Shown here: in pieces, positions 56,369-59,507 of the stretch
Numbering within the stretch: the stretch's first letter is position 1
Layout of the letters: every line of letters begins with the position of its first letter
NCBI GenBank assembly: GCA_009914755.4
Contig: CP068257.2
Span: 29,888,001-29,952,000 of the forward strand
Direction: 5' to 3'
Length of the DNA stretch: 64,000 bases
Source: the human T2T-CHM13v2.0 reference genome, Homo sapiens
Made by a program: the position numbers and the translations under genes
The notes under the pieces: model-generated
What the model was told of the DNA's origin: nothing
Database searches by the model: none
What the model saw: only the letters and a program-made list of their open reading frames with translations

Positions 56369-57840
56369 GTAATTTCTTCTTAACTCCTGTATCACTAGTT
56401 TGGGAGGAGGGGAGGAGGCAAGGAACAAGACAGAGAAGGTACAGTCGCCTACAGTTGTCATTGTTTTGTCCGCTTGGCACATATCTCCTCCCTTTCTTTT
56501 AGTATTAGGAACTCTCTTTCTCACGGAGAACCCATTAACCCATTCCCGTGTGATTTAGCTGGAGTTCTTCCAGCAGCATCATACAAGTGGGCACATGGCC
56601 AACCCTCCCAGGCCAATCAGAGTGCATGCCATTTTCCGGGTTACTGTGATGGGTTGAGAGGTGGGCTCAAAAGCTGTGAGTCAGAACCTGGCTGGGCCAG
56701 TCGGAATTGCTCCTCCAGTTTTCCTATGGAACTCTTGGGAGAATGACATGTTCTCTAGAGCAGAAGCCATGAAGAAAGCTAAGCTGAGAGCTGTCAGAGA
56801 TGATCTTGGCTTCCATGTGGAGCTATCTGGCCAGAGAATATGGCCCAAAGGAAAGCAGAAATGACAGAGAAGCAGGGGTACAGGAAAGGGGTCTAAATGG
56901 CATAATTTGGCTTCCTGAATCCAACTCTACCTGAAGCCATTCCCATTCCTTACTTATGCTGCCCAGATATGGGGAACTAATACATCTCTTTTTTTCCTTA
57001 CAGTGGTTTGAATTGCATTTATATCACAGGCAAAAACAAAAAACAAACAAACAAAAAAAACACCTTGACAAAGATGGAAAGTAAAGGAGAAAGATGGAGA
57101 CTGGGTTGGACAGGATGGGTGGTCTCTGAGGGCTCTAAATGCCAGGCAGAGAAGCTTGCCTTATTATGATACATAAATCCTTTCTGGAAAGAGGTGAGAA
57201 ATGCTGTTATCCACCTTTAGCTCTGACTCTTCCCTTCATGTGCTGAGGGGCACTAAGAAGACTCTTTCTTTTAACTGTAAGAAGAGGGTAACAGCCACAT
57301 TTCACTCCAAACCATTAATTTAATAAGTTTAGACAGAAGAGATTATTAGCCTCAGAAGGTGTTGCTTTCATTATCATTGAAATGTGCTTTTTCTGCTTTC
57401 TACTATGTTCTATTCTTCCCTCCCTGAATGCCCACATGCAAATTAGGGAATGTTGCAATGCCCAGAGCAGAGTTATAACATCCAGCTGTACTACAACAGC
57501 AGTTTTACATAAATGGCCATCCTCTAAACTGTGGACATTTGATAAAGTATGTGGGCTCTTCTCATAATTAAAAGCCCAAAAGGGAACCAAGGAAACACAG
57601 AGAACATTATTCTAGTGACTTATAAAACTGGGCTGGAGAAAATCTCCTATGTCTAGAGGTGGAAGAGAAAGGATAAAAAAGGAGAAGGAGTAGAACAGAA
57701 AATGCAAATGAGAAAAAGAGATGGCGGTGGAAAGAAGGGCTGCAGTAGAAGACAGGAGAGAATAGAGCAAGCAGAGGCAGGAAGCCAAGTACGAAAAGGA
57801 GGAGAGGAGTGGGGAGTGTTTAGATCAAGACTCTTCTCTT

Positions 57841-58135
57841 GGCTGGGCGCAGTGGCTCACACCTGTAATCCCAGCACTTTGGGCGGCCGAGGCGGGCGGA
57901 TCACCTGAGGTCAGGAGTTCGAGACTAGCCTGGCCAACATGGTGAAACCCCATCTCTACTAAAAATACAAAGATTAGCTGGGCATGGTGGCACACACCTG
58001 TAGTGCCAGCTATTTGGGGAGGCTGAGGCAGGAGAATCGCTTGAACCTGGGAGGCGGAGGTTGCGGTGAGCCAAGATCGTGCCACTGCAGTCCAGCGTGG
58101 GTAACAGAGGGAGACTCCATCTCAGAAAAAAAAAA
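57841..58135 (+). mobile_element. Alu SINE, copy 1 of a head-to-tail three-Alu array
   Basis: ggctgggcgcagtggctcacacctgtaatcccagcactttgggcggccgaggcgggcggatcacctgaggtcaggagttcgagactagcctggccaacatggtgaaaccccatctctactaaaaatacaaagattagctgggcatggtggcacacacctgtagtgccagctatttggggaggctgagg ... tcagaaaaaaaaaaaag. Confidence 0.94.
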
Positions 58136-58445
58136 AAGCCAGGCAAGGTGGCTTTTGCCTGTAATCCCAGCACTTTGGGAGGCCAAGACAGGTGGATCAC
58201 GTGAGGTCAGGAGTTCGAGACTAGCCTGGCCAACATGGTGAAACCCCATCTCTACTAAAAACGCAAAGATTAGCTGGGCATGGTGGTGCACACCTGTCGT
58301 CCCAGCTACTTGGGGAGGCTGAGGCAGGAGAATTGCTTGAACCTGGGAGGCAGAGGCTGCAGTGAGCCAAGATCGCACCACTGCACTCCAGCCTGGGCAA
58401 CAGACAGAGACTCCATCTTAGAAAAAAAATAAAAATAAAAAATAA
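58136..58445 (+). mobile_element. Alu SINE, copy 2 of the array
   Basis: ccaggcaaggtggcttttgcctgtaatcccagcactttgggaggccaagacaggtggatcacgtgaggtcaggagttcgagactagcctggccaacatggtgaaaccccatctctactaaaaacgcaaagattagctgggcatggtggtgcacacctgtcgtcccagctacttggggaggctgagg ... ttagaaaaaaaataaaaataaaaaataa. Confidence 0.94.
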
Positions 58446-58728
58446 GGCCAGGCAAGGTGGCTTACGCCTGTAATCCCAGCACTTTGGGAGGCCAAGGCAT
58501 GTGGATCACGAGGTCAGGAGTTCAAGACCAGCCTGGCCAACATGGTGAAACTCCGTCTCTACTAAAAATACAAAAATTAGCCAGGTGTGGTGGCGGATGC
58601 TGTTAATCTCAGCTATTCGGGAGGCTGAGACAGGAGAATCGCTTGAACCCAGGAGGCGGAGGTTGCAGTGAGTCGAGATCGCACCATTGCACTCCAGCCT
58701 GGGCAACAAGAGTGAAACTCCATCTCAA
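58446..58728 (+). mobile_element. Alu SINE, copy 3 of the array (no A-tail, runs directly into the TSD)
   Basis: ggccaggcaaggtggcttacgcctgtaatcccagcactttgggaggccaaggcatgtggatcacgaggtcaggagttcaagaccagcctggccaacatggtgaaactccgtctc ... caacaagagtgaaactccatctcaagacccttctcttc. Confidence 0.93.
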
Positions 58729-59507
58729 GACCCTTCTCTTCTCTGGACCTCCATTTCCTCCTCTGGGGCATCCATAGGCAGAGCCAACTACATAATTTGC
58801 AGGGCCTGATACAAAATCGAAACGTGGAGCCCTTTGTTCAAAATGTACTCAAAATTTGGAGGCAGCAGCAGCACAGCATTAAACCAACTGTGGGGACCTG
58901 TGCAACCATGGAGGTCACATGCCCATGAAGCTGGCTCTAATAAATTAGATCAGGATTTTCAGAAGGTGTTCTGTAAACTCCAGATATTCCAAAAACAAAA
59001 GATTCCTTATTCTCATCTCTAGGAAGTGGGGCACATTTCCCCATCCCTTCATTGAAGATTCAAAATGCGCGTGAACTGCTCCAGAAAGCCCTGCTTGAAA
59101 GCAAGAAACGTGTGTGCCTTCATTTCAACCAGTTTCTCAAATGTATTTGACCATAGCAACATTTTTTCCCCAATTCTCCATATTAATACCCCATATAACC
59201 CATTTTGCAAAATGCTTGAAGTCGATGGTCTTGAGGTCCCTGGAGCTAGAAAAGGCATTAGCAGTCACCCACAGCAGCCCCTCCTGCCCTGAGATTGGAT
59301 GCTCACAAATCTGCTCTTCTTGGCCTTGATGATGACAGTGGTCTCTTTCTTCCAGATTTGATGAGTGTGGGGCATGGGAGGAGATTACTGGGGTTGCAAA
59401 ACCTGCAGCAGGTTCTCAAAGATGACATATCAACTCCCCTAAATGCCCCTCCACTCAGGCACCATGAAAGCCTTTGTTTTAATACACTCAAAATGTTGCC
59501 TCTTCAC

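What the first reader, a model, noticed from the sequence alone, without database searches (positions are those of the whole stretch)
57825..58745. Three head-to-tail Alus bounded by a single target-site duplication, with copies sharing private mutations pairwise (local unequal-recombination or duplication product)
The direct repeat caagac(t/c)cttctctt occurs only before copy 1 (57825-57839) and after copy 3 (58726-58740). There is no separate TSD between copies. Copies 1 and 2 share diagnostic right-arm and left-arm variants absent from the Alu consensus: gagactagcctgg, caaagattagctgggcatggtgg and ttggggaggctg. Copies 2 and 3 share a different unusual 5' end: ccaggcaaggtggctt instead of gcgcggtggctcac. 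Copy 2 is therefore mosaic between its neighbours. That pattern is expected from unequal crossing-over or gene conversion within an Alu array, not from three independent retrotranspositions. Such arrays are substrates for copy-number variation.
Basis: seen in the sequence. Interest (0 to 1): 0.5.

Follow-up and report, generated by a model that had tools for sequence, protein, structure and literature searches.

The report
Alu triplet from unequal Alu recombination
Three back-to-back Alu repeats in which the middle copy is a hybrid of its two neighbours, the footprint of an old unequal crossover between two adjacent Alus; it is real, but it is an ordinary product of a well-known mechanism.

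Summary
Three full-length, same-strand Alus (57841-58727) sit head-to-tail. They are joined only by A-rich linkers and bounded by one 14-nt direct repeat, AAGACYCTTCTCTT, which occurs nowhere else in the window.

Copy 2 is a clean mosaic. Over Alu positions 1-57 it shares 7 of its 10 derived states with copy 3 and none with copy 1. From position 65 on it shares 15 of 27 with copy 1 and only a chance-level number with copy 3. There is one switch point, in a 7-bp identical block (GGATCAC, 58194-58200), with permutation p = 7e-5.

The rare variant combinations (86T+132G+extra G; 10A+18T) occur in none of 300 other Alus, so they are private, not subfamily markers. Copies 1 and 3 differ at linked subfamily markers and are independent insertions.

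The best model is an ancestral dimer c1-c3 that underwent one unequal homologous exchange, giving c1-(c3 5'/c1 3')-c3. Both halves of copy 2 are about 7-9% diverged from their parents, so this was one old event (my estimate is roughly 20-35 My), not a recent copy-number variant.

A single outer repeat around adjacent Alus is itself ordinary: a control pair in the same window has one. The only oddity is that copy 3 has no A-tail. No orthologous loci could be retrieved.

The parts
57827..57840 (+). 5' copy of the target-site duplication, AAGACTCTTCTCTT. The match extends to TCAAGAC... at 57825, which overlaps homology with the Alu 3' end.
   Evidence: one of only two matches in the window, directly abutting the first base of copy 1.
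57841..58124 (+). Copy 1 (c1): full-length AluSx-like element. It is the upstream parent.
   Evidence: 90.3% identity to the Alu consensus over positions 1-289; has CT at 65-66 and C at 153 (the non-deleted subfamily state).
58125..58137 (+). Linker 1: the c1 tail, G followed by A12.
   Evidence: The G immediately after ...TCTCA is shared with linker 2. It was not among the eight most frequent states in 102 external Alu ends, so it occurs in at most 2 of them, and it is seen in no other Alu of the window.
58138..58193 (+). Copy 2, 5' segment (Alu positions 2-57), derived from copy 3.
   Evidence: 92.9% identical to c3 versus 75.0% to c1; 7 of 10 derived states shared with c3 and 0 with c1 (P = 4e-4). 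Includes the rare 10A and 18T.
58194..58200 (+). Exchange window, GGATCAC (Alu positions 58-64): a 7-bp block identical in both parents where the switch occurred.
   Evidence: The last c3-type state is at position 57 (58193). The first c1-type state is the retained 2-nt at positions 65-66 (58201-58202).
58201..58420 (+). Copy 2, 3' segment (Alu positions 65-282), derived from copy 1.
   Evidence: 91% identical to c1 versus 82% to c3; c1-c2 ranks 1st of 1,891 window Alu pairs over positions 58-282; 15 of 27 derived states shared with c1 (P = 5e-5). Includes 86T, 132G and the extra G after 175.
58421..58445 (+). Linker 2: the c2 tail, G A8 T A5 T A6 T AA. It is homologous to linker 1.
   Evidence: same G + A-run start as linker 1, and followed by the same GCCAGGCAAGG Alu 5' end.
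58446..58727 (+). Copy 3 (c3): full-length Alu of a different subfamily lineage (65-66 deleted, 153G; AluSq/Sp-like from memory). It is the downstream parent and has no A-tail.
   Evidence: 88.8% identity to the consensus; subfamily markers; the only one of 61 window Alus without an A-tail or a tail-derived microsatellite.
58727..58740 (+). 3' copy of the target-site duplication, AAGACCCTTCTCTT. Its first A doubles as the last base of the Alu body.

Best explanation
Two Alus of different subfamily lineages (c1, AluSx-like; c3, AluSq/Sp-like) first lay head-to-tail, separated only by c1's A-tail and bounded by one L1-type target-site duplication. Later, c3 on one chromatid or homologue mispaired with c1 on the other. 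A replication template switch between the two copies would be equivalent. A single homologous exchange resolved in the 7-bp identical block GGATCAC (Alu positions 58-64). The duplication product is c1 - [c3 5' 57 nt + c1 3' 220 nt + c1 tail] - c3. That is the present array, with the c1-tail/c3-head junction now present twice.

Shown: the anatomy, the mosaic, the single switch point, the privacy of the shared variants, and the equal divergence of the two halves.

Inferred: the recombination mechanism itself, the two-copy ancestor, and the age (about 20-35 My).
For: 1. Mosaic with one switch. All 13 informative sites at positions 2-54 and 57 group c2 with c3; position 55 is a c3-private change. 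From position 65 to 232 nearly all sites group c2 with c1. Max chi-square = 19.3, permutation p = 7e-5.
2. Orientation of the hybrid. The 5' part comes from the downstream copy and the 3' part from the upstream copy. This is exactly what an unequal exchange in a dimer predicts.
3. Shared derived states. c2/c3 share 7 of 10 in positions 2-57 (2.2 expected, P = 4e-4), and c2/c1 share 0 there. c2/c1 share 15 of 27 in positions 58-282 (6.2 expected, P = 5e-5), while c2/c3 share 5 there, which is not significant.
4. Privacy. The 86T+132G pair in cis has 0 hits in contaminant contigs, against 62 hits for the consensus-state pattern. 0 of 300 independent Alus carry 2 or more of the c1/c2 rare set or both 10A and 18T.
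5. Many shared states are CpG decays, which accumulate after insertion.
6. The junction is duplicated. Both linkers start with the rare G + A-run and are followed by GCCAGGCAAGG. Spacing is 296 and 307-309 nt.
7. One event. c1-c2 divergence is 20/226 versus 4/56 for c2-c3 (Fisher p = 0.80); non-CpG divergence is 6.3% versus 7.0%.
8. c1 and c3 are independent insertions. They are 79-83% identical throughout and differ at linked subfamily markers 65-66 and 153.
9. Negative controls. Ten other head-to-tail Alu neighbour pairs in the window share 0-2 rare states.
10. Literature. Alu-Alu mispairing is an established cause of deletion and duplication, with exchange windows of 1-116 bp and a hotspot in the left arm at positions 24-45 (PMC2041999).
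Against: No outgroup or two-copy allele could be obtained, so the ancestral dimer is inferred. The last 50 nt of c2 (positions 233-282) have no c1+c2 synapomorphy and one c2+c3 shared CpG transition at position 240, so that stretch is uninformative on its own; only the c1-like tail ties it to c1. Position 65 of c2 (G) matches neither parent. The raw identity of c1-c2 (91.2%) is only slightly above the best unrelated young-Alu pair (90.2%); the case rests on shared derived states, not identity alone. The model does not explain why c3 lacks an A-tail. Meiotic non-allelic homologous recombination (NAHR), sister-chromatid exchange and replication template switching cannot be told apart from the product.
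Confidence: 0.85

Rival explanations
1. Three Alus inserted independently, each later one into the A-tail of the one before. The middle copy was later overwritten by gene conversion: its first ~57 nt from copy 3 and the rest from copy 1.
For: Insertion into pre-existing A-tails is common in this window, with at least four other pairs. The mosaic pattern as such is what conversion tracts would also give.
Against: It needs two conversion tracts from two different donors that abut exactly and together cover the whole element plus the start of its tail, including the shared G in the tail. Both tracts would also need the same age. None of ten other neighbouring Alu pairs in the window shows any sign of conversion.
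Confidence: 0.05
2. The array arrived as a unit, with no recombination at this locus. There are two versions. In one, a pre-formed Alu array elsewhere was transcribed and retrotransposed here. In the other, a single L1 reverse-transcription event jumped repeatedly between two Alu RNAs (copy-choice plus end-to-tail template jumps) and laid down all three copies at once.
For: One TSD bounds the whole array. L1-type reverse transcriptases can make bi- and tripartite chimeric retrocopies by template jumps (PMC2104539). Equal divergence of the two halves of c2 also fits a single insertion time.
Against: The shared derived states are largely CpG decays plus rare substitutions. The template RNAs would therefore have come from old, decayed elements, each used twice, with three or more switches including one at a homologous internal position. 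There is no 3' poly-A, which Alu retrotransposition normally requires, and priming within 20-25 nt of the start of the tail is seldom seen (PMC3415434). This is much less parsimonious than one crossover.
Confidence: 0.05
3. Three independent retrotranspositions from related source genes. Under this reading the shared variants are source-gene or subfamily markers, and the mosaic appearance is chance.
For: Some c1/c2 versus c3 differences are indeed subfamily-level (65-66, 153, 163). Individual CpG decays are common in the background.
Against: The rare variant combinations are absent from 300 other Alus. Switch-point test p = 7e-5. Sharing of post-insertion CpG decays is far above expectation, and only with the physically adjacent copy. 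The tail G is shared.
Confidence: 0.01

Closest known systems
Alu/Alu unequal homologous recombination (ARMD and its reciprocal duplications; Alu/Alu-mediated rearrangements). Han et al. 2007 PMC2041999; Song et al. 2018 PMC6071635.
   Same: Same-orientation Alus mispair and exchange within a short identical block in the left arm, producing a chimeric Alu whose two parts match the two parents. Exchange between different subfamilies is common. The 7-bp window here lies within the reported 1-116 bp range and just 3' of the position 24-45 hotspot.
   Different: The published catalogues score the deletion product (one chimeric Alu) between Alus hundreds to thousands of bp apart. Here it is the duplication product between directly abutting Alus, so the duplicated unit is just one Alu length and contains no unique DNA.
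Transposable-element tandem dimers expanded by unequal exchange (McGurk & Barbash 2018, PMC5932611; R1 arrays in Drosophila).
   Same: Two steps: insertion-site preference first creates a head-to-tail dimer, and unequal exchange then raises the copy number.
   Different: In those cases the dimers carry a TSD copy between the elements, and arrays can reach tens of copies. Here the linker is the A-tail, there is no internal TSD, and expansion stopped at three copies.
Tandem Alu pairs formed by insertion into the A-tail of a resident Alu (examples in this window: 24039/24348, 14954/15197, 49879/50170, 8322/8611).
   Same: Head-to-tail, an A-rich linker only, and one recognisable outer TSD (24039-24625 has AAAYAGGCAGTCT on both sides). 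This is the likely origin of the ancestral c1-c3 dimer.
   Different: Those pairs share 0-2 rare variants, and their downstream Alu keeps a normal A-rich tail. Here the downstream Alu has no tail and a hybrid third copy exists.
L1-mediated chimeric retrocopies made by template switching (U6/L1 and related; Gogvadze et al. 2007 PMC2104539).
   Same: Two different RNAs joined head-to-tail within a single TSD. This is a possible one-step origin of the c1-c3 dimer.
   Different: Known chimeras end in a poly-A, and the 3' part is usually a 5'-truncated L1 or Alu. Here both parts are full length and the 3' poly-A is absent. This was not tested beyond anatomy.

Membership tests
Alu SINE | About 282-nt dimeric body homologous to the Alu consensus | tested here: met
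   all three copies align over consensus positions 1-289 (c3 1-284) at 87-90% identity.
Alu SINE | 3' A-rich tail on each element | tested here: not met
   c1 and c2 have tails (G+A12; a 25-nt A-rich linker). c3 has none and is the only such case among 61 window Alus. c3 is still an Alu by its body. The missing tail is an anomaly of its insertion or later history.
Classical L1-mediated (TPRT) insertion | 7-20 bp target-site duplication directly flanking the inserted unit | tested here: met
   A 14-nt AAGACYCTTCTCTT abuts the first base of c1 and the last base of c3 and is unique in the window. It flanks the array, not the individual copies.
Classical L1-mediated (TPRT) insertion | Endonuclease-type target (TT/AAAA-like; the TSD begins with As) | tested here: inconclusive
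   The pre-insertion site reads GATC|AAGAC (bottom strand TCTT/GA). This is a plausible variant, but one site cannot be scored statistically.
Alu-Alu unequal recombination duplication product | Hybrid element: the 5' part matches the downstream parent and the 3' part matches the upstream parent | tested here: met
   c2 positions 2-57 are c3-like (92.9% versus 75.0%) and positions 58-282 are c1-like (91.2% versus 82.4%).
Alu-Alu unequal recombination duplication product | Single switch point inside a block identical in both parents | tested here: met
   The switch lies between positions 57 and 65, in GGATCAC at 58194-58200. Max chi-square permutation p = 7e-5.
Alu-Alu unequal recombination duplication product | The inter-parent junction is duplicated, and the repeat period equals the parent-to-parent spacing | tested here: met
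   Both linkers begin with the rare G + A-run and are followed by GCCAGGCAAGG. Periods are 296 and 307-309 nt.
Alu-Alu unequal recombination duplication product | Both halves of the hybrid are equally diverged from their respective parents (one event) | tested here: met
   20/226 versus 4/56 differences, Fisher p = 0.80. Non-CpG 6.3% versus 7.0%.
Alu-Alu unequal recombination duplication product | A pre-duplication two-copy state exists in an outgroup or as an allele | not testable with these tools
   No primate genomes are available. The flank ORF is absent from the protein collection, the flank 24-mer is absent from metagenome contigs, and exact ORF look-ups were empty.
Template-switch chimeric retrocopy (as origin of the c1-c3 dimer) | Two different RNA copies joined within a single TSD, ending in poly-A | tested here: inconclusive
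   Single TSD and different subfamilies: met. Terminal poly-A: absent. The same anatomy, minus the tail problem, also arises from insertion into an A-tail (control pair).

The most novel reading that the evidence does not exclude
The ancestral c1-c3 dimer was laid down in one retrotransposition event rather than two. L1 reverse transcriptase primed on an AluSq/Sp-like RNA exactly at its body/tail junction, helped by the 4-nt TCAA microhomology between the target (GATCAAGAC) and the Alu end (TCTCAA). This gave a tail-less copy 3. On reaching the RNA's 5' end, the enzyme jumped onto the poly-A of a second, AluSx-like RNA. The result was a full-length Alu-Alu chimeric retrocopy inside a single TSD, which unequal exchange later expanded to three copies.
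Probability: 0.3. Interest if true: 0.3.

Novelty: new member of a known kind. Interest (0 to 1): 0.15.

Why it matters
It matters very little beyond the locus. It is a clean, internally dated textbook example of the rarely catalogued duplication side of Alu-Alu recombination, and of the first step from a transposable-element dimer towards a tandem array. There are two practical points. The middle copy is not a retrotransposition event, so it should not be counted or dated as one, or used as an insertion marker. And one TSD around several Alus does not by itself indicate anything unusual. If the tail-less copy 3 and single TSD reflect a one-step Alu-Alu template-jump insertion, the locus would be a modest addition to the catalogue of L1-mediated chimeras.

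Tried and rejected
Orthologous or allelic loci. I tried exact look-ups of a unique-flank ORF and of a junction-spanning ORF (nothing). A homologue search with the flank ORF found no candidate at all. From this I concluded that the protein collection does not hold ORFs from this genome, so I did not spend further searches. An exact 24-mer of the 5' flank against the metagenome contigs gave 0 hits.

Gene identification, as a route to annotated primate orthologues. The only CpG island (about 37.5-39.7 kb) yields only Arg/Pro/Gly/Ala-rich ORFs that do not look coding. I judged a 13-CPU-hour search on them unjustified. Rfam found only two Alus scoring as SRP RNA.

Rare-state sharing as a stand-alone statistic. 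It is dominated by multi-column deletions in old or truncated Alus. c1-c2 is only in the top 1%, and c2-c3 is unremarkable at the chosen threshold. I replaced it with the Poisson-binomial test and the external co-occurrence test.

'Excess identity' relative to the AluSx consensus. It is confounded by AluJ pairs that share subfamily differences, so I did not use it.

Random-pair control for the TSD. It is inflated by Alu-Alu matches (90 of 20,000), so I replaced it with the motif search with shuffles.

Position 132 by alignment gave 7% G in the external set. This was an alignment ambiguity in the A-run: the exact motif CAAAGATTAGC is absent from all 241 external Alus.
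Full report
**What is there**

The interval holds three full-length Alu elements on the + strand, head to tail. Tandem Repeats Finder reports one array (57852-58727, period 296, 2.9 copies, 85% matches). BLAST with an Alu consensus gives three hits covering consensus positions 1-289 at 87-90% identity.

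Reading the sequence gives this anatomy:
- c1: body 57841-58124, followed by G+A12 (58125-58137).
- c2: body 58138-58420, followed by a 25-nt A-rich linker (58421-58445).
- c3: body 58446-58727.

The array is bounded by AAGACTCTTCTCTT (57827-57840) and AAGACCCTTCTCTT (58727-58740). These are the only two matches to that motif in the 64 kb window at up to one mismatch. 0.18 are expected, and none of 100 shuffles reached two. Neither linker contains a copy.

**The mosaic**

I aligned the three copies with 59 other near full-length Alus from the same window. The window is 29% Alu.

Shared derived states (AluSx numbering):
- c2 with c3: 5 G>A, 9 G>A, 10 C>A, 18 C>T, 49 G>A, 54 G>A, 57 C>T. All lie within the first 57 nt.
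- c2 with c1: 86 C>T, 112 G>A, 132 A>G, 139 C>T, 144 G>A, 156 G>A, 175 C>T, an extra G after 175, 207 C>T and 232 G>A. c2 also has the c1 state at the subfamily-level positions 65-66, 153 and 163.

Beyond position 57 the only c2+c3 shared derived state is a CpG transition at position 240.

Statistics:
- A maximum chi-square test on the 48 informative sites places one breakpoint between positions 54 and 65 (chi-square 19.3, permutation p = 7e-5).
- Segment identities agree. Positions 2-57: c2-c3 92.9%, c1-c2 75.0%. Positions 58-282: c1-c2 91.2%, c2-c3 82.4%. c1-c3 is 79-83% throughout.
- Among all 1,891 Alu pairs in the window, c1-c2 ranks first over positions 58-282, and c2-c3 ranks third (tied) over positions 2-57.
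- With background state frequencies, c3 carries 7 of c2's 10 derived states in positions 2-57 (2.2 expected, P = 4e-4), while c1 carries none. c1 carries 15 of c2's 27 derived states in positions 58-282 (6.2 expected, P = 5e-5), while c3 carries 5, which is the chance level.

**Private or subfamily-diagnostic?**

Two scans yielded 182 contaminant primate contigs containing 241 further Alus.
- The pair 86T+132G in cis has 0 hits where the consensus-state pattern has 62.
- By exact motif, GAGACTAGCC and CAAAGATTAGC occur in none of the 241.
- 10A occurs in 0 of 86 (GTDB set) and 3-4 of 110 (metagenome set). 18T is at about 4%.
- No element among the 300 (external plus window) has two or more of the c1/c2 rare set, or both 10A and 18T.
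- The G that begins both the c1 and c2 tails is also rare: at most 2 of 102 external Alu ends, and no other window Alu.

In contrast, the 65-66 deletion and 153G that separate c3 from c1/c2 are common and positively linked (odds ratio 3.1, P = 0.002). They are subfamily markers. They show that c1 (AluSx-like) and c3 (AluSq/Sp-like; the subfamily names are from memory) are independent insertions.

**Mechanism**

A hybrid whose 5' end matches the downstream neighbour and whose 3' end plus tail matches the upstream neighbour is the expected duplication product of one unequal homologous exchange in a dimer c1-c3. c3 on one chromatid pairs with c1 on the other and resolves in the 7-bp identical block GGATCAC (58194-58200). 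This gives c1-(c3 5'/c1 3')-c3, with the c1-tail/c3-head junction present twice.

Both linkers do start with the same G + A-run and are followed by the same GCCAGGCAAGG. The two halves of c2 are equally diverged from their parents (20/226 versus 4/56, Fisher p = 0.80; non-CpG 6.3% versus 7.0%), as one event requires.

Han et al. [quoted passage not shown] They report exchange windows of 1-116 bp (mean 20) and a left-arm hotspot at positions 24-45. The window here is 13 nt 3' of that hotspot. The product cannot distinguish meiotic non-allelic recombination from sister-chromatid exchange or replication template switching.

**Age (inference)**

Pairwise non-CpG divergence of 6-7% between the duplicated parts compares with 4.7% non-CpG divergence of c1 from the consensus, and with three shared pre-duplication non-CpG changes. 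This puts the event at roughly two-thirds of c1's age. With commonly used primate neutral rates (0.1-0.15% per My, from memory), that is about 20-35 My.

The array is therefore old and has been stable. The longest identical in-register blocks today are 60 nt (c1-c2), 31 nt (c2-c3) and 22 nt (c1-c3). Further exchange is possible but not favoured.

**Controls and context**

Ten other same-strand neighbouring Alu pairs in the window share 0-2 rare states, so adjacency alone does not homogenise Alus here.

The pair 24039-24310 / 24348-24625 is also enclosed by a single outer repeat (AAAYAGGCAGTCT, 12 of 13), with the second Alu sitting in the first one's tail. 'Several Alus, one TSD' is therefore the ordinary look of insertion into an A-tail, and it is not evidence of anything unusual. 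McGurk & Barbash (PMC5932611) describe the same two-step logic for other elements: a dimer arises through insertion preference and is then expanded by unequal exchange.

**What remains unexplained**

c3 runs straight from ...CATCTCA into AAGACCC with no A-tail. It is the only one of 61 window Alus lacking a tail or a tail-derived microsatellite. The downstream members of the four control dimers all have normal tails. De novo Alu inserts seldom prime within 20-25 nt of the start of the poly-A (PMC3415434).

There are two readings:
- (a) c3 inserted into c1's tail, and the whole terminal A-run later collapsed to nothing. The prior is high for the insertion route, but the complete collapse is rare.
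- (b) The dimer was made in one reverse-transcription event. It was primed at the body/tail junction, where the target GATCAAGAC and the Alu end TCTCAA share TCAA, and was followed by a template jump onto a second Alu RNA's poly-A, as in known L1 chimeras (PMC2104539).

I put these at roughly 55% and 30%. Neither affects the main conclusion.

**Rivals**

- Gene conversion of an independently inserted middle Alu. This needs two abutting tracts from two donors, of equal age, covering the whole element and the start of its tail.
- Arrival of the whole array as a unit. This needs decayed templates used twice, several template switches, and no poly-A.
- Chance or subfamily sharing. This is excluded by the tests above.

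**What could not be done**

No orthologous or allelic locus could be retrieved. The gene context was not identified. The decisive comparison with ape and monkey genomes is set out under next steps.

**Verdict**

This is a new instance of a well-known process, and its interest is low.

Noticed in passing
window 58720-58740: Copy 3 ends ...CATCTCA and runs directly into the 3' TSD with no A-tail. It is the only tail-less Alu among 61 in the window. The target (GATCAAGAC) and the Alu end (TCTCAA) share a 4-nt TCAA microhomology.
   Followed up: partly
window 33000-41400 (CpG island about 37500-39700): An 8.4 kb stretch with no Alus in an otherwise 29% Alu window. It contains a strong CpG island (GC 0.68, CpG observed/expected 0.94 at 38-40 kb). 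This is probably a promoter or first exon. The ORFs there look non-coding, and the gene was not identified.
   Followed up: partly
window 24020-24670: Two Alus (24039-24310, 24348-24625) are enclosed by a single outer direct repeat AAAYAGGCAGTCT (12 of 13), with the second Alu sitting in the first one's A-tail. They share no rare variants. This is a natural negative control for the finding.
   Followed up: yes
window 14954-15483, 49879-50458, 8322-8886: Three more head-to-tail Alu pairs are separated only by an A-rich tail (gaps of 4, 15 and 20 nt). None shares private variants, and all downstream members keep normal tails.
   Followed up: partly
whole window: Alu orientation is strongly biased: in the BLAST list, most near full-length Alus are on the + strand, and almost all of those in 1-32 kb are. 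This may reflect transcription on the - strand across that part.
   Followed up: no
window 1804-1850, 44129-44175, 56001-56015: Alu tails replaced by microsatellites: (CA)n after the Alu at 1536-1803, (TA)n/T-rich after 43853-44128, and (AATC)n after 55715-56000.
   Followed up: no
window 32055-32202 (-) and 44233-44349 (+): Two Alu fragments score just above Rfam's gathering threshold for Metazoa_SRP (73.7 and 71.9 bits against a threshold of 70). These are Alu/7SL homology, not SRP RNA genes.
   Followed up: no
window 58153-58156: Copy-2-specific changes at Alu positions 19-20 create a TTTT run (GGCTTTTGCC). This is a potential RNA polymerase III terminator 16 nt into the element.
   Followed up: no
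L002, L007, L029, L030, L043, L046, L058, L060 (MAG Roseivirga sp., CBDIHZ01 contigs): A metagenome-assembled 'Roseivirga' genome holds at least eight contigs of 7-17 kb packed with full-length Alus, up to 15 in 8 kb. This is primate DNA contamination, possibly collapsed or concatenated repeats.
   Followed up: partly
L049 (MAG uncultured Acidobacteriaceae, contig_26530, 144,627 bp): The fetched 8 kb stretch of a 144 kb contig in a bacterial MAG contains two full-length Alus (900-1187, 7659-7947). The contig is likely a mis-binned or chimeric primate sequence.
   Followed up: partly
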